Shown here piece by piece: positions 16,478 to 63,700 of a stretch of 64,000 nucleotides of DNA (position 1 is its first letter; each line of letters begins with the position of its first letter). The stretch is taken from positions 6,386,001 to 6,450,000 of the forward strand of contig CM030332.1 in the NCBI GenBank assembly GCA_017654855.1, written 5' to 3'. The position numbers and the translations under genes are program-made. The notes under the pieces are model-generated. The model made no database searches. It saw only the letters and a program-made list of their open reading frames with translations, and was not told where the DNA came from. This DNA comes from Podospora anserina (Eukaryota).

Positions 16478-18054
16478 ATCTTTTGATTTGAGCGGCTACA
16501 AAACGTGTACACTACAAACCCCATTTCCTTATTTTTATCAAAAGTGTCTTTTTCGGCGCCCTGGTGGGTTCAGCCTTGATATCCAATTCTTACGATCCTT
16601 CACGAACACATAGCATTACTGCATTGCATTATTTGGCGGCTATTTTTGGGGGCGGGATTTTTCTATTTTTTTTTTTCGCTTTATCGCAAATACCCCCCAT
16701 AATCTCGTCACCCCCTTGAGTTTTCTTTTTGAAAGTTTACATGATCGGTCGGAACAATTGATGGGCTAAAGAAGGATATGCTCCTTGGGCAAAGAGAGGG
16801 TGATGAGAAGATTCATGGGAAGGGTTCACTTATTATACATGGGACAGCTGGGAAGATATACATGGCGAAACGTATACTGTACATAATAGTTAATACCCCC
16901 AAATGGAAAGACCACAATGTTCCGATCAAATACTGTTCAAACTTTGTGATTTTTGGTGAACACGTGATGCATTATACAATTTTCGGTCAGATCGAACATA
17001 CCAAACCACTTCCAATTCCGTGAATGTTGATACTGACGTATTATTCACCGTGAAGAGTATCGCAATATCCTAACTTCTTGATACCTAGGTAAATAATTGC
17101 CATGAAAGCTAGCACCTATTCGTTCATTCCTCATATCAACCTCAACCCTTTCCCAGAAAACCCACACAAAACCTCCAGGTCTGTTCAAACAGTTTGTTTA
17201 GTCTTGGACGGCCCATGTCCCACCTGCGGATGTCTCTAATCACCGGTGAGACTTGCCCGTCAATCGTCGAGATATGTCCTCCTATTATCGGGGCAGGTCC
17301 GCCGACCATTCACAGAGAATTACACCCCTTCCATCCAGCAATCACCCCCCTTGTGCACACCGTACCTATCAAGCAACTGCAGGGCACCCAAACACTCTAC
17401 CCAATGGCATATTTCCTCAAACTGAGAATCAGTCGCACCCTCTCCCTCTAAGAGCTCTAGCCACCTCATGAACCGGGGCCCGTCACGGAAATTGCAGCTC
17501 TCTCTATCGGGATGAGGGGCTTCCACACGGAGCGAGCGAGCGCGAATCCACCTCCCAATCCAGTCCACAACCAACAGTACCTTAGGTACCTCACCCAAAC
17601 GTTTGACTATATGATCCAACTCGGGCTTGCTTTGGTGTTGGTTGATTGTTGGGGGAGGGGGCCAATGGTGGTCATTGGGTGAGGGTTATTGATGTTTACT
17701 GGGGGAGTGGCGTTGAAACAAGTCATTGACAGAAGAAGATTTTTGGGACGGGTTTACTTGTGTCGTATGGATGTTTCGGGATATAGTTCGTTGGCTTTAC
17801 CATACTAAATCGTTCGATTCTTCTTATTGAGAAAAGAGCTGTCGGACCAAGTGGTTATAAGCTCTCGAATACTCCGTGGACTGTATCACTTTGCCAGATA
17901 TCGTTACGCTGGAAAGACTTCAGATGGTCGTGGTGGAATGATGTTCACGGTTTAACTGATGCAACATGTCTCATGCTTAATATGCCTGGAATCGGCGCCT
18001 CATTATCATTATTTCATGCCTTTCAATGCTATCAAATGAGTACACCAGCCCCAT

Positions 18055-59003: not shown

Positions 59004-59198
59004 GTACGTATTACAAACTCTCTGCCTTTGTTTTCCTATCACATCTTTATGGATCATCCTTTTCATCGCATCATATTTGCACTTTCACTTGGTCGGCGTT
59101 GAAGCTGGGACATGTTGTCTCGAGCCAAGGGTGCCGATTACGAATCGCAACCGTACATTTTGTTTCCGTTTGGGCATGTATTCTAATCTAATAGCCAG
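59004..59198 (+). other. Probable 5'-UTR intron of the RRM gene
   Basis: GTACGT donor at 59004, CTAAT branch at 59183, TAG/CAG acceptors at 59194/59198. Confidence 0.45.
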
Positions 59199-59253
59199 GG
59201 CTTAATCATATCTGATTTCAAAGCACACAAGAACTCTCACAAAAGCATCCACA

Positions 59254-60690
59254 ATGGCTGAGAACGACGATTTCGTCCTCGACGTCTACGGGGATGAGAA
59301 GAATGACCAGGGCGGTAACGATCACCAAGAGAACGGCAACAGCGGTCACTATGACAGAGAGGATGCCCACGCCGGCAATAGCCAGGGCAACCACGAGGAC
59401 TATGACTACGCCGGTGAGAACGGTGACGAGAACCAGGGTCAGGGCCACAACGGCGCCGACCTGTACGACATGGGCGAGTCTGACGGCCAGGCCCAGCCGC
59501 GTCAGAGCCCTCAGCCCAAGCAGGGCATCAAGCGCAAGGAGGGTGAGGGTTCGGATGAGCGCCCTGTCGACCCCGGTGCCACCACCGCGCTGCTCATCAA
59601 TGAGTTGAACTGGTGGACGACTGACGACGACATCCGCGGTTGGGCTGTTCAGGCCCAATGTGAGGCTGAACTCAAAGACATTACTTTCAGCGAGCACAAG
59701 GTTAACGGCAAGAGCAAAGGGTAAGTTTTGTTTTGTTTTCTCTCGCACATCAGATAAAAGCCTTGGAGCGGTTTGCTAACACCAATACATCGGATTAGAC
59801 AAGCTTATGTCGAGTTCACGTCCCAGCAGGCCGCCACGGCGGTCAAGCACCGCATCGAGTCGCTGGCCAACGAGCCGAATCAGCCGGCGTCGAAGCGTCC
59901 CACGGCGATTTACAACAATCCGTCGTTCAACCCTTTCCGGACGCTGCCCAAGGACACCCCCAACCGGGGCGGTGCTCCCAGAGATGGCCAAGGTGGTGGT
60001 CGTCCTCCTGTTGGCCCAAACCACAATGATTCGCAGCGCCCGAACAGCTACCAGGGCGGCAACAACGGCTTTGGTGGTGGCGGTTACCGCGGTAGAGGTG
60101 GTTACACTCCTCGTGGTCAGATGAACCGCGGTGGTTATAGCAATTACCAGGGCGGCATGAACAACCAGTTCAACCCCGGTAACAACATGGGCTTCAACGC
60201 TGGCGGTGGCGGTGGCGGTGGTTATGGTGGTGGTGGTGGCGGGTTCAACAACAGAGGTGGGATGGGCATGATGGGTCGTGGTGGTGGCATGCGCGGTCGC
60301 GGTGGTGGCGGCGCTGGAAATGCCATGGGCATGATGCCCATGAACCCCATGGCTGGCGGTGGCATGATGGGAATGGGTGCTGGTATGAACCCCATGATGA
60401 TGGGTGGTGCTGGCCCAATGGGTATGGGTGGACCCATGGGTGGTATGCCTGGTAAGGACCCCAGAACTGACTTTTCCCCTGGCGGCACTGGGCCGTCTCG
60501 ACTTTTTCTTTTCTTTTTTTGACCGCCTGCTAACCCGAAAGGACCCATCTCAGCCTTCCAAGGGATGGGCAACCAGTTTTCCCAGCCGTTCGGGTTTGGT
60601 GGAGGTTCGGGTGGTGCTGGTGGGTTCGGTGGCGGTGGGAACAGCCAAGCCCAGAATCCGCATGGTGCGAAGCGTCCCCGGGGGGAGTAG
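59254..60690 (+). CDS. CPSF6: CPSF6/CFIm68-like RRM protein with RGG and Gly/Met low-complexity tail; exons 59254-59720, 59799-60451, 60554(or 60542)-60690
   Basis: RRM LLINELNWWTTDDDIRGW..LKDITFSEHKVNGKSKGQAYVEF matches the CPSF6/7 LTWWTTD..F.E.R.NG.SKG signature. Two introns (GTAAGT/GTAAGG..GCTAAC..AG). Ends NPHGAKRPRGE-TAG. Confidence 0.88.
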
Positions 60691-60708
60691 GACTCCTCTC
60701 CGGGCGTT
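60671..60708 (+). promoter_or_regulatory. RNA hairpin presenting the UAG stop codon in its loop (candidate A-to-I editing site, A60689)
   Basis: GGGGGGA(60680-60686) pairs with TCCTCTC(60694-60700), extended by CCC/GGG and AGCG/CGTT. Loop is GUAGGAC. Confidence 0.65.
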
Positions 60709-63700
60709 TCTGGACAACAGGGTCGTGAAGGAGGTGGTGCTGGTGGTGCTCCTGGCGGCAACGGACGTGGCGGTCAGGGCCATGGCCGTGGTGGTGGTAC
60801 TGCCGGTGCTGGTGGTGTTTGTCCTCGCCGTCAGAACCAGGTTTAAACACCTGGCGAATTGAGGCTGCTGGAGATGGAAGTTTGAGGTTGGAACGAACTG
60901 ATCATCGCGACATATTCACAGCGCAGCACAACGGGGTGGTTTTTTTGTGGGAAGTGTATCAACATATTGCAACATGGGCTTCTTTCTTCGCGATCTTTTT
61001 CCGGCTTTCCCCCTTCGCCATCGCCAAATCGCCAATCAATCTCTCGACTTTGCCACCCGACCCCCTCGTCATCGCCAAACCTCCTCCTCCTCTTATGCCC
61101 TATGTCGAACGGTGTTCTCCCAAATCCGGGGGAATACTTAGTAGAGTAAGGGAAAGGAGGAGTGGTGGTGCGGCAAGGGGTCGTTGGTGTTTTGAGATTT
61201 GGTCTTCGACATGGCAAGTTCTTTCATCTCAACACTTGGCAAAAATTCGTTTGCCAACGAAAAAATCGCTCGGCAACGAAGAAGATTTTGAAGTTTTTTT
61301 TTCGCTCGGAAACAATCGCTCTGGATGGTTTGCGGGCGTGGCATTCTCAAAATTTTGCGTTTGCAAGCGCTGGGGTTGGGGATAGCTGGGATGATGGGGG
61401 AAGGATATGTTTTTACGTTTCTTTTTTCGCTTTTCTTTTTACAATAGCTCGACACACAGTTTGAGAAACCAGGGCTATTTTTTATTTATTTTGTGGGTTT
61501 TTGTTTGAAATATGGGGAGTTGGAGTTGGGAAATAGTTGGCTTGAGAATATTAAACTGATCACCAACATACGACATTTGCCTGGCAACCATAGCCCAAAA
61601 GATCGAAAAATGGAGTTGGTGGTAAGGTGGTTAGGGCTGAATAAACTGGTTAATTTGTTTTATTTTTGTGTTTCGCTGTTTATAATTGGGATGAGGATGA
61701 GAGATGTGGTGAAGTGCTTTGGATGTGTTTTCATGATTATTGTTGCTCACGGATGGTGTTGTGTAAGCAGTGTGGTTTTTGATGTGGTGGGAGTAGCTAT
61801 ATGTTGGGTGTATGATTGAGTGGAAGGCAGAACCTTAGAATGTGAGTTGAATATGACCGTTGAAGTATCAAAAGGAGATTGGGTAAATGGATAGGACATG
61901 TGGGATATCTTCTCCGGAGGTGCTTGGAGTTCAGTTGATAATTATAGAACAGGGGGGCTCAAGAGATGTGGAAAAAACAGCACTTGTTGTTATTATCTGC
62001 ACTGTAGGTAGGCTCGGTGATGCAAAGGCATATAAGTGAGCGTTCAACGGTGCTTATTCCATGGAGCCAATATGTGTTGAGAATGTTCGTGGTTGTGAGT
62101 CAGTGTTCTCAATGCTGCGTCGGTTGATACGGACTATCGATTAAAAGTGATCCATGAAAGTTAGAGCTCATGTGTCAATACCATGGGCTTACCACCTGAC
62201 TTTGTTTCACGCTGCAAATATGCTTCCACGTGATGATCTGCTTATCAAGATTATATGTGTCGTGGCTCAAAAGCTGGCTACACTTAGCTTGTCGTCCGAA
62301 CTTTCGTCCCAGACTTGCCGTTTAGTCATCTATTTCTATCCCTGAAGGCTTGGAGATTATAGATTCATGGACGTTAGTTGTCTTTGTGCTCGCCGGTGTG
62401 GCAAAGATATGTATTCAGTCAACCGTCCCAGCTTGCACTGCGAAGCACGGTGTATGGGGGTGCAAACTGTAGTTCACGGCTTAGAGATGTGATAATCACA
62501 GTTACAGCCTTTACCGAGTACTACTTCCAAGAAATCGCTTACAGTTTCCCTTGTTTAAAGCAGTCTTTTCTTGCTTTCAGATGCGGAAAGCAAACACCGG
62601 AGAGGAACCGGGGCCGGGCACCAGTGACACGGAAGGAAGCACGAGCCCCGGTCCCGCTCCGGTCCGGCATCGGCCGTCAGGCACAGTTTCAACCCAACCC
62701 ACAAACCGGAGCCTAGGCCCCAACCCCATGTGACTCTGAAACTTGAACAAGCCTGTGTTTGTGATCAGCAAAACCGCCGACAGATGAGACAAGATCGAAT
62801 ACACACGAAAATAGGGACTCATCTATAATCACGCCACAAAAGGGTTGCAGCCAAGTTCTACTACAGTTTGTGGCAACTTACGGGCAGTGTTGTGCTACAT
62901 TCTCTTGTCATTCTTAGGTTCTATCGGAGGGTTTACTTCGCGCCTGGCCATTTAGGATGATCGCCTCTGTCGTAGGGGCGATATTCAGAGATGATTGACA
63001 GGGGAAATCGCTTACACCATCCCACCACAGCAAGTCACGAACAAAAAAGGGGTCTAGCCCAGAGTATGACTTGAGTGAGGTTGCTTTCGCCACTCCCAAC
63101 CTTGAAACGCTGCTTCTGGGCCTCTTGAATGCAAGACCAAGTCCGTTTTTCGAGGTTCAAGTCCGCAACTTCAAGATACTTCCTCTCGCTCGGTCCGTTT
63201 ACTCCTCCTTAAATGCATACATCCTATTATCTGAACCCCCTCTCCACCTTGGACCCAAACATCGGGATGGGATGAGACGATAGACGGGACCTAAACTCAA
63301 TTCTATCCTAACCATCATCCGAACCTTGAAAACGAGCTCCCATTCGAAACAGCAACTCTACCTAGTCTCTTGGTAAACTGTCTAGTCTATACCAACAGAA
63401 GCAACACGGTCAAAAAACTCCGAAACTAGCACAAGACCAAGCTAATGCTGCATGCCTCTCTGCCCAAAGTAGGTATATGCTGTCAAGCTTAGCCTGGGTA
63501 CGGGTTCCATAACGTGCGATAGGCTGGACGAGTAGGAATCCATGCCCAGTTTCCTCTTTTTCTTGTCGTCAACTCGCTGTCAGCAGATTCCTCCTCTCGC
63601 TTATGATCATAACATCGACAGAGCTTCAGTCATGTTGCACTCGCGCTTTTGCGCCGGTGCTACATAACCTGTCTTTCAACCATCTATGTAGGTCTAGTCG

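What the first reader, a model, noticed from the sequence alone, without database searches (positions are those of the whole stretch)
60671..60846. Stop codon of the CFIm68/CPSF6-like gene sits in an anticodon-loop mimic and hides a 52-aa RGG extension: predicted A-to-I stop-loss editing
Seen: after GAG-TAG (60688-60690) the same frame stays open for 51 codons to TAA (60844-60846), encoding DSSPGVSGQQGREGGGAGGAPGGNGRGGQGHGRGGGTAGAGGVCPRRQNQV. It has two GRGG motifs and the same GGT/GGC-rich coding as the upstream tail. The stop lies at the apex of a long hairpin (60680-86/60694-700, plus outer pairs). Its 7-nt loop G-U-A-G-G-A-C puts U and A at the positions of tRNA U33 and A34, with an AGG 'anticodon' and a purine at 37. 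Known: Sordariomycetes edit mRNA A-to-I during sexual development using the tRNA deaminase Tad2/Tad3 (with Ame1). They prefer U at -1, purines at +1/+3 and hairpin loops, and UAG->UIG reads as Trp. TAG-G is not a typical leaky readthrough context, and splicing the intron-2 donor to the AGs at 60690 or 60720 does not reach this frame. Inference: a stage-specific switch lengthens the RGG tail of a poly(A)-site-selection factor and internalises its basic KRPR terminus, linking RNA editing to alternative polyadenylation.
Basis: partly seen in the sequence, partly recalled or inferred. Interest (0 to 1): 0.85.

Follow-up and report, generated by a model that had tools for sequence, protein, structure and literature searches.

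The report
Hairpin-held stop codon, likely RNA-edited
The stop codon of a Podospora gene for an mRNA 3'-end processing factor sits at the tip of an unusually stable RNA hairpin that related fungi also keep, which makes it a good but unproven candidate for the known sexual-stage RNA editing that erases stop codons.

Summary
The gene is a CPSF6/CFIm68-like RRM gene of the Podospora anserina species complex and ends at TAG 60688-60690. The same frame stays open for 51 codons to TAA 60844-60846. The TAG lies at the apex of the most stable stop-enclosing hairpin among all 1086 TAG triplets in the window.

New evidence comes from orthologues on metagenome contigs. All 16 distinct Sordariomycete-like sequences, the window included, end in TAG. 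In the 14 tested, the 3' flank folds back on the coding arm far better than shuffled or swapped flanks do (z about -6 and -4). The 25 non-Sordariomycete orthologues show no such signal. This is the signature published for conserved A-to-I stop-loss sites such as DBF2.

Editing itself is not shown. Contigs of 4 RNA runs of unknown stage carry A at 60689. No protein with Trp plus the tail was found.

The Gly-rich tail uses codons like the gene's own in frame 0 only, but relatives do not share it; their extensions are 7-63 codons. The proposed RGG/poly(A)-site switch is therefore speculation.

Verdict: a credible new member of a known kind, with moderate interest.

The parts
59004..59198 (+). 5'-UTR intron (GT..AG, 195 nt)
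   Evidence: RNA contigs of 4 runs start at 59199. Their loose 5' letters match the window up to 59003.
59254..59720 (+). Exon 1 of the CPSF6/CFIm68-like RRM gene (ATG at 59254)
   Evidence: Translation. 99% identical to a 416-aa Podospora pseudopauciseta protein. The joint 59719/59798 is seen in 4 of 4 runs.
59799..60451 (+). Exon 2 (second half of the RRM, then a Gly/Met/Arg-rich low-complexity region)
   Evidence: The RRM's best solved relatives are CPSF6 (E 6.9e-6) and CPSF7 (E 0.0012).
60554..60690 (+). Exon 3, ending in the conserved ...KRPRGE terminus and TAG 60688-60690
   Evidence: The joint 60450/60553 is seen in 4 of 4 runs. All 13 Sordariales orthologues read share a closely similar terminus: 12 end in KR[PA]RGE and one in RPRPLE.
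60665..60715 (+). Hairpin enclosing the stop. Inner 9-bp stem 60680-60688 / 60692-60700, loop 60689-60691, outer pairs beyond
   Evidence: MFE -29.4. Rank 1 of 1086 TAG sites. 0 of 400 flank shuffles reach it. A60689 is unpaired and in a hairpin loop in all 200 sampled structures.
60689..60689 (+). Candidate edited adenosine (UAG to UIG, read as Trp)
   Evidence: The context fits the published preferences. The site reads A in the contigs of 4 RNA runs, so editing is not shown.
60691..60846 (+). In-frame 51-codon Gly-rich tail plus TAA
   Evidence: Codon usage is like the CDS in frame 0 only. The RNA-run strain differs at 60797 (G>A, which changes Gly to Asp in this frame). No homologue found.
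60847..61600 (+). Rest of a long 3' UTR (contigs run about 350-480 nt past 61600)
   Evidence: Contig pieces, table 8. A contig may merge neighbouring transcripts, so the true 3' end is not fixed.

Best explanation
The TAG stop of this CFIm68-like gene is presented in the apical loop of a stable hairpin. The 5' arm is the coding sequence for the conserved ...RPRGE terminus. The 3' arm is the first roughly 12-25 nt of the 3' UTR. Sordariomycete-like relatives keep both the TAG and a stop-enclosing hairpin, so the structure is selected.

The most likely reason is that the loop adenosine (60689) is a substrate of the sexual-stage Tad2/Tad3 (ADAT) mRNA-editing activity of these fungi. UAG would become UIG, read as Trp, and part of the mRNA pool in fruiting bodies would encode the protein plus Trp and a 51-residue Gly-rich, presumably disordered tail.

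By analogy with published stop-loss tails, the tail more probably changes protein amount or stability than adds a specific RGG function.

Shown: the gene model, the stop, the open frame, the hairpin and its clade-specific conservation. Inferred: editing, its stage, translation of the tail, and any effect on the protein.
For: (1) The hairpin is exceptional within the window. It ranks 1 of 1086 TAG sites and 1 of 84 G+C-matched sites. z is -3.5 against 400 flank shuffles.

(2) Fourteen Sordariomycete-like orthologues were tested (16 distinct; 2 near-duplicates of L070 left out). Mean stop-enclosing hairpin energy is -20.8 kcal/mol. Mononucleotide shuffles of the flank give -15.3 +/- 0.9 and dinucleotide shuffles -16.0 +/- 0.8; 0 of 400 of either kind reach the observed value. 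With flanks swapped among species the mean is -17.5 +/- 0.8, and 0 of 20000 permutations reach it. All 14 have negative z.

(3) The 25 non-Sordariomycete orthologues show no signal (z -0.5 and -0.6; permutation p 0.12).

(4) TAG is present in 16 of 16 distinct Sordariomycete-like sequences, against 3 of 8 Leotiomycete-like and 2 of 4 Eurotiomycete-like.

(5) The context matches published preferences: -1 U (85.7% of sites), +1 A/G, +2 G, +3 A/G; 62% of sites lie in hairpin loops, and more stable loops are edited more (passages of PMC4817773).

(6) The same triad of TAG bias, hairpin-embedded stop and poorly conserved disordered tail is described for the conserved DBF2 stop-loss site. F. graminearum has 323-403 stop-loss genes (passages of PMC13123824; PMC4817773).

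(7) Inference: once a ribosome reaches the stop, the 5' arm is already unwound. The hairpin must therefore act on free mRNA, which fits an RNA-modifying or RNA-binding factor better than a termination signal.

(8) The tail has CDS-like codon usage in frame 0 only.
Against: No A>G was seen. In 4 RNA runs from 4 studies the contig across 60553-61600 (to about 61120-61130 in two runs) differs from the window only at 60797 and by one inserted T after 61293. The stage of these runs is unknown, and contigs drop minority variants.

No protein with Trp plus tail turned up. One search gave 3 hits among 8000 candidates, all covering only the pre-stop 46% of the query. One search gave 0 of 19 candidates. 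One search gave 1 hit, on query residues 1-44 only.

The tail is not conserved. Extensions in Sordariomycete-like relatives are 7-63 codons, and nothing in the 3' UTR aligns with them. In six Chaetomiaceae-like sequences the extension is no better conserved than the 30 nt after its second stop (0.54 against 0.55 and 0.52; shuffled 0.46).

A single fixed helix register is not conserved. 53.3% of cells pair against 50.7% in shuffles (39 of 500 reach it). The covariation score is 0.118 against 0.102 (80 of 500), and a slide of +1 scores higher.

TAG is also kept where no hairpin signal exists: 7 of 7 Lecanoromycete-like and 10 of 10 unassigned sequences. TAG retention alone is therefore not specific. 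G-ending two-fold codons are likewise favoured here (14 of 15 for both AAG and GAG).

No editing catalogue for Podospora surfaced (search).
Confidence: 0.5

Rival explanations
1. The conserved hairpin is a cis-acting mRNA element unrelated to editing. It could be a binding site for an RNA-binding protein, or an element of stability, localisation or autoregulation in a gene with a very long 3' UTR. The TAG lies in its loop without being altered, and the tail is never translated.
For: The hairpin is selected, but no edited read was seen. The tail peptide is not conserved. The 3' UTR exceeds 900 nt, which is common in autoregulated RNA-processing genes (general knowledge, recalled). TAG is kept in clades without the hairpin.
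Against: No Rfam family matches 60400-62200. The helix register and loop size vary between lineages, which argues against a sequence-specific protein site. The hairpin signal is confined to the clade in which hairpin-loop UAG editing is documented. This reading does not explain the frame-0 codon usage of the tail.
Confidence: 0.28
2. Neutral by-product. G-rich Arg-Gly-Glu codons happen to pair with a C/T-rich UTR start. The tail is a GGN-rich low-complexity stretch, made by slippage or an old insertion, that falls in frame by a 1-in-3 chance.
For: Five of the six frames carry no stop across the tail. A 9-nt unit is repeated twice in the tail (60733-60750). One nonsynonymous strain difference lies in the tail. 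Column-wise covariation fails. The unconstrained loop-probability test is weak: Sordariomycete-like mean about 0.61 against 0.37 in shuffles, with single p-values mostly above 0.05 (the means are my arithmetic).
Against: Composition-preserving shuffles and partner swaps reject chance for the hairpin (0 of 400, 0 of 400 and 0 of 20000). The site ranks first of 1086 TAG sites. The tail is not a detectable copy of the gene's own coding sequence (27% of 300 codon shuffles reach the score). Apart from one two-copy 9-nt unit it is not a tandem array.
Confidence: 0.12
3. The tail is reached without editing, either by programmed ribosomal readthrough of UAG or by a minor splice variant that removes the stop.
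For: TAG is kept widely, in 38 of 46 distinct orthologous sequences. In-frame extensions in Sordariomycete-like relatives are mostly short: median 13 codons against 48 and 32 in the other two frames over 13 lineages (my arithmetic; lineages are not independent). That could reflect back-up stops behind a leaky stop.
Against: The GT that overlaps GAG-TAG is absent where the last codon is GAA and TAG is still kept (L077, L011, L021, L037). It therefore cannot be a conserved donor. Only the two canonical CDS joints appear in 4 of 4 RNA runs. The intron-2 donor joined to the nearby AGs gives another frame. A hairpin with the stop inside its loop is melted when the ribosome arrives, unlike the downstream structures known to promote readthrough (recalled).
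Confidence: 0.06

Closest known systems
Stop-loss A-to-I editing of DBF2 (also MOB1 and CDC14) in Fusarium graminearum and other Sordariomycetes (PMC13123824; passages read)
   Same: [quoted passage not shown] TAG strongly favoured within Sordariomycetes. A conserved protein terminus before the stop. A disordered extension that is poorly conserved outside close relatives.
   Different: There, editing was measured (70-78%) and the 11-27-residue tails were shown to destabilise the protein. Here editing is unobserved, the tail is longer (51 residues) and Gly/Arg-rich, and the gene is a 3'-end processing factor. That paper's main text has no occurrence of 'polyadenylation', and its gene list is in a supplement I could not open.
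Genome-wide sexual-stage A-to-I mRNA editing by Tad2/Tad3 ADATs in filamentous ascomycetes (PMC4817773, PMC11156358, PMC5381528; passages read)
   Same: Sequence and structure preferences fit: -1 U, purines downstream, a hairpin loop, and stable loops edited more. Stop-loss sites number 323-403 in F. graminearum, 47 in S. macrospora protoperithecia and 149 in Pyronema.
   Different: Those sites were called from RNA against DNA. This one is only predicted. No catalogue for Podospora turned up. A 2025 preprint only notes ADAT genes regulated during P. anserina sexual development.
white collar-1 stop-loss editing in Sordaria macrospora with peptide evidence (PMC6794485; passages read)
   Same: A long C-terminal extension (131 residues) in a Sordariales species, produced by UAG-to-UGG editing.
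   Different: That case has peptide proof and a domain-like extension. Here there is no peptide evidence and the tail is low-complexity.
Anticodon stem-loop of A34 tRNAs such as tRNA-Pro(AGG), the natural ADAT substrate (recalled, not from a call)
   Same: U precedes the target A, followed by G-G and a purine. A stem closes the loop.
   Different: The predicted loop has 3 nt, not 7. The stem has 9 bp or more, not 5. Loop size varies from 3 to 17 nt among relatives.

Membership tests
Fungal ADAT-dependent A-to-I stop-loss editing site | Canonical stop is UAG (U at -1 of the target A, G at +1) | tested here: met
   TAG at 60688-60690. TAG in 16 of 16 distinct Sordariomycete-like orthologous sequences.
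Fungal ADAT-dependent A-to-I stop-loss editing site | Target A unpaired in a stable local hairpin loop (+/-30 nt fold) | tested here: met
   loop probability 1.0; rank 1 of 1086; z -3.5. This is a preference of the family, not an absolute requirement: 62% of sites.
Fungal ADAT-dependent A-to-I stop-loss editing site | Downstream purine preference (+2 G, +3/+4 A or G) | tested here: met
   +2 G and +3 A fit; +4 C does not. In relatives +2 is a purine in 15 of 15 and +3 in 14 of 15.
Fungal ADAT-dependent A-to-I stop-loss editing site | A in genomic DNA but G in part of the RNA reads from sexual tissue | tested here: inconclusive
   Contigs of 4 RNA runs read A. Stage is unknown, contigs drop minority variants, and no raw reads were available.
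Fungal ADAT-dependent A-to-I stop-loss editing site | In-frame extension to a second stop | tested here: met
   51 codons to TAA 60844-60846. 7-63 codons in Sordariomycete-like relatives.
Fungal ADAT-dependent A-to-I stop-loss editing site | The host carries out sexual-stage mRNA editing | not tested
   Documented for other Sordariales (S. macrospora, N. crassa). For P. anserina I saw only a remark on regulated ADAT genes.
CFIm68/CPSF6-like subunit of cleavage factor Im | RRM most similar to the CPSF6/CPSF7 RRM | tested here: met
   The best solved-structure matches of orthologue P0001 are CPSF6 (E 6.9e-6) and CPSF7 (E 0.0012). Pfam RRM_1 scores below its cut-off (17.9 against 20.7 bits).
CFIm68/CPSF6-like subunit of cleavage factor Im | Binds CFIm25 and acts in poly(A)-site choice | not testable with these tools
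   No experiment or complex prediction was run. One source names an orthologue 'HRP1'.
Programmed translational readthrough signal | Leaky stop context and/or a structure starting a few nt 3' of the stop | tested here: not met
   The stop lies inside the loop, not 5' of the structure. The criteria for a leaky context are recalled, not taken from a call.

The most novel reading that the evidence does not exclude
A core poly(A)-site selection factor carries an old, clade-wide editing switch. In Sordariomycete fruiting bodies, ADAT editing of a hairpin-presented UAG would convert part of the CFIm68-like mRNA into a tailed isoform; in Podospora the tail is a 51-residue RGG-bearing one. The tailed isoform would have altered stability or RNA-binding and condensate behaviour. 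That would couple RNA editing to a developmental shift in 3'-end choice.
Probability: 0.12. Interest if true: 0.7.

Novelty: new member of a known kind. Interest (0 to 1): 0.45.

Why it matters
If the site is edited, one RNA-processing layer (A-to-I editing) would regulate another (cleavage and polyadenylation) at a defined developmental stage. It would also add a case in which the editing substrate structure, not the tail, is what evolution keeps.

The comparative result stands on its own. It gives a clean example of a coding 5' arm and a UTR 3' arm being kept complementary through changing registers.

The limits are plain. Hundreds of stop-loss sites are already known in related fungi. The event is unverified here. 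The proposed functional link to poly(A)-site use has no evidence yet.

Tried and rejected
RNA runs: no RNA holder is listed as such. I laid 4 of the 16 runs guessed to be RNA, one from each of 4 of their 7 studies, chosen from the table alone. They proved to be spliced RNA but are kept only as contigs. No A>G appears at 60689.

No whole genome is held for this window, so no genome-wide background and no search for a donor copy of the tail was possible.

Searches for a hard-wired Trp plus tail, or for an edited-transcript protein, found none. One search was limited to the 8000 candidates sharing most words, and Gly-rich words crowd it. Searches also found none.

Neighbouring genes as a control for stop-codon turnover: no window ORF outside this gene matched any locus.

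Tail as a recent copy of the gene's own Gly-rich exon: 27% of 300 codon shuffles reach the score, so rejected.

Tail as a microsatellite: only one two-copy 9-nt unit.

Alignment of the 3' UTR or tail with relatives: no meaningful alignment. An apparent tail resemblance to L055 that I read by eye was not recovered by that alignment.

Coding-type conservation of the short extension in Chaetomiaceae-like relatives: not supported.

Fixed-register covariation with a covariance model: not significant.

Splice donor overlapping the stop: rejected, since the GT is absent in 4 TAG-bearing sequences.

Rfam and tRNA scans: nothing.

Two other very stable TAG hairpins in the window (63520 +, 19196 +) are not ends of long ORFs.

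Supplementary tables listing edited genes in N. crassa, S. macrospora and F. graminearum were closed. They may already list the orthologue.
Full report
**What is there**

The window comes from a member of the Podospora anserina species complex. Exon 1 of the gene is 99% identical to a 416-aa protein of P. pseudopauciseta, and the next best hits are other Sordariales.

The gene on the + strand has three coding exons: 59254-59720, 59799-60451 and 60554-60690. It also has a 5'-UTR intron at 59004-59198. Both coding introns are confirmed by spliced contigs in 4 of 4 RNA runs laid, and the UTR intron by the contigs' loose ends.

The 418-residue product carries an RRM whose best solved relatives are human CPSF6 and CPSF7. 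After the RRM comes a Gly/Met/Arg-rich region and then a terminus ending ...KRPRGE. All 13 Sordariales orthologues read share a closely similar terminus: 12 end in KR[PA]RGE and one in RPRPLE. The annotated stop is therefore the ancestral one.

**Checking the observation**

TAG lies at 60688-60690. The frame then runs 51 codons to TAA 60844-60846 and holds two GRGG motifs.

The open frame alone means little, because five of the six frames carry no stop across the stretch. The tail is nevertheless codon-like in frame 0 only. Its log2 odds per codon under the gene's own codon table are +0.60, against -1.7 and -1.8 for the other frames. With a table from the non-Gly-rich exon 1 the values are +0.13 against -1.2 and -1.5. 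Gly codons are GGT 12, GGC 6, GGA 3 and GGG 0 in the tail, compared with 55, 34, 5 and 8 in the CDS. Base composition changes after the TAA.

The tail is not a detectable copy of the gene's own Gly-rich exon (27% of 300 codon shuffles reach the score). It is not a tandem array either, apart from one two-copy 9-nt unit.

The hairpin is real, with MFE -29.4 kcal/mol for 61 nt and z -2.6. This leaves a 3-nt loop with A60689 as its first base, so the '7-nt anticodon loop' is at best an opened form. In a 121-nt context the overall folding energy is unremarkable (z -0.3).

**More than chance**

I forced a hairpin to enclose each of the 1086 TAG triplets on both strands of the window. This site is the most stable of all, and 1 of 84 at matched G+C. 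None of 400 shuffles of its 30-nt 3' flank reach its energy.

**Relatives**

A scan of metagenome contigs returned 80 loci encoding orthologues. The conserved terminal motif was found in 60 of them. That gave 46 distinct 108-nt segments around the stop, the window included. I assigned each locus to a class by its best named blastx hit. These labels are rough, and L064 in particular is doubtful.

Stop codons overall: TAG 38, TAA 4, TGA 4. By group:

| Group | TAG / distinct sequences |
|---|---|
| Sordariomycete-like | 16 / 16 |
| Lecanoromycete-like | 7 / 7 |
| Unassigned (best hits P0093, P0023, P0016, P0025) | 10 / 10 |
| Leotiomycete-like | 3 / 8 |
| Eurotiomycete-like | 2 / 4 |
| L066 (unnamed best hit P0032) | 0 / 1 |

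TAG retention is striking but not specific to the clade known for editing. G-ending two-fold codons are also strongly favoured here. I therefore give TAG retention limited weight.

The hairpin result is stronger. I tested 14 Sordariomycete-like sequences, leaving out two near-duplicates of L070. The mean energy of the best stop-enclosing hairpin is -20.8 kcal/mol.
- Mononucleotide shuffles of the flank give -15.3 +/- 0.9 (z -5.9; 0 of 400 reach the observed value).
- Dinucleotide shuffles give -16.0 +/- 0.8 (z -6.0; 0 of 400).
- Flanks exchanged among species give -17.5 +/- 0.8 (0 of 20000 permutations).

All 14 sequences have negative z. The Gly codon's third base and the 3' arm change together in several lineages: GGT with ACC, GGC with GCC, GGG with CCC or CTC (read).

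The 25 non-Sordariomycete sequences tested (5 near-duplicates left out) show nothing: z -0.5 and -0.6, and permutation p 0.12.

Two results cut the other way.
- A single helix register is not conserved. On the ungapped alignment 53.3% of cells pair against 50.7% in shuffles (39 of 500 reach it). Sliding by +1 gives a higher covariation score.
- The unconstrained probability that the stop's A lies in a small hairpin loop is only moderately raised. The mean is about 0.61 against 0.37 in shuffles (my arithmetic).

What is kept, then, is 'a hairpin around the stop', rebuilt in different registers with loops of 3 to 17 nt, and not one fixed structure.

**The tail in relatives**

Extensions in Sordariomycete-like sequences are 7-63 codons. 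About 9 codons is usual in Chaetomiaceae-like ones, and the closest Podosporaceae-like locus, L055, has 13. No part of the window's 3' UTR aligns with any relative.

In six Chaetomiaceae-like sequences the extension is no better conserved than the sequence after its second stop (0.54 against 0.55 and 0.52).

No protein anywhere carries a homologous tail or a Trp at the stop. Each of those searches is limited by low complexity, length windows or clustering.

The 51-residue Gly-rich tail is thus specific to the Podospora lineage. One strain difference falls in it: 60797 G>A, which changes Gly to Asp in this frame.

**Direct test**

Only contigs were available. In 4 runs from 4 studies the contigs are spliced, so they are RNA. 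They read A at 60689. Their developmental stage is unknown and contigs drop minority variants. This excludes only majority editing in those four samples.

**Mechanism**

Published work (passages read) shows several relevant points.
- Sordariomycetes edit mRNA A-to-I in fruiting bodies with the tRNA deaminase Tad2/Tad3.
- U at -1 and hairpin loops are preferred, and stable loops are edited more.
- About 9% of UAG triplets are edited in F. graminearum.
- 323-403 genes there lose their stop this way.
- The DBF2 site combines a TAG bias, a hairpin-embedded stop and a poorly conserved disordered tail that lowers protein abundance.

The present site shows the same combination. A hairpin that contains the stop is melted by an arriving ribosome, so it should act on free mRNA.

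I therefore put stop-loss editing first, at about 0.5. A non-editing cis-element comes second (about 0.28), a neutral by-product third (about 0.12), and readthrough or alternative splicing last (about 0.06). The GT overlapping the stop is missing in four TAG-bearing relatives, which removes the splice-donor idea.

**Comparison and novelty**

If edited, this is one more member of a well-described class. What is new is the gene, a CFIm68-like 3'-end factor, and the comparative evidence for selection on the substrate hairpin.

I saw nothing in print that links fungal editing to a polyadenylation factor. Searches gave no such paper, and 'polyadenylation' does not occur in the main text of PMC13123824. 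The gene lists are in supplements I could not open, so the site may already be catalogued in other species.

A dosage or stability effect of a disordered tail is the more conservative expectation.

Noticed in passing
window 60847-62050: The RNA contigs continue from the stop to at least 61600 and run about 350-480 nt further. This implies a 3' UTR of roughly 1.3 kb, very long for a fungal gene, unless a neighbouring transcript is merged into the contig. It is G/T-rich and C-poor beyond 61100.
   Followed up: partly
window 59004-59198: A 195-nt intron lies in the 5' UTR. Two of the four runs also hold contigs across 59100-59228, which suggests unspliced or alternative 5' forms.
   Followed up: partly
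window 60797 and 61293: All four RNA runs differ from the window by G>A at 60797 and by one extra T after 61293. Six DNA runs hold all of the window's sampled words. The RNA therefore comes from another strain than the window.
   Followed up: no
P0002 (Cercophora samala) and P0003 (Triangularia setosa), at the position of the window's intron 2 (60452-60553): The annotated orthologues carry an extra stretch of about 80-110 residues exactly where the window has intron 2. It is either a translated, retained long intron in those gene models or a real lineage-specific insertion.
   Followed up: no
window 63520 (+), 19196 (+), 17238 (-): These are the next most stable TAG-enclosing hairpins in the window (-27.1, -24.7 and -25.3 kcal/mol). 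The two on the + strand are not the ends of long open reading frames, so they are probably not stop-loss candidates. The minus-strand site at 17238 was not checked as closely.
   Followed up: partly
loci L001-L080, stop codon of the orthologues: TAG is the stop in 38 of 46 distinct orthologous sequences across several ascomycete classes. These include Lecanoromycete-like and unassigned groups that show no hairpin signal. I have no explanation beyond ancestry and G-ending codon bias.
   Followed up: partly
loci L070, L045, L047, L001, L063, L055, L003 (first 7-13 codons after the stop): In many Sordariomycete-like relatives the in-frame extension ends after 7-13 codons, while the other two frames stay open for tens of codons. 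This would fit a back-up stop behind a leaky or edited stop. The lineages are not independent and the effect was not tested formally.
   Followed up: partly
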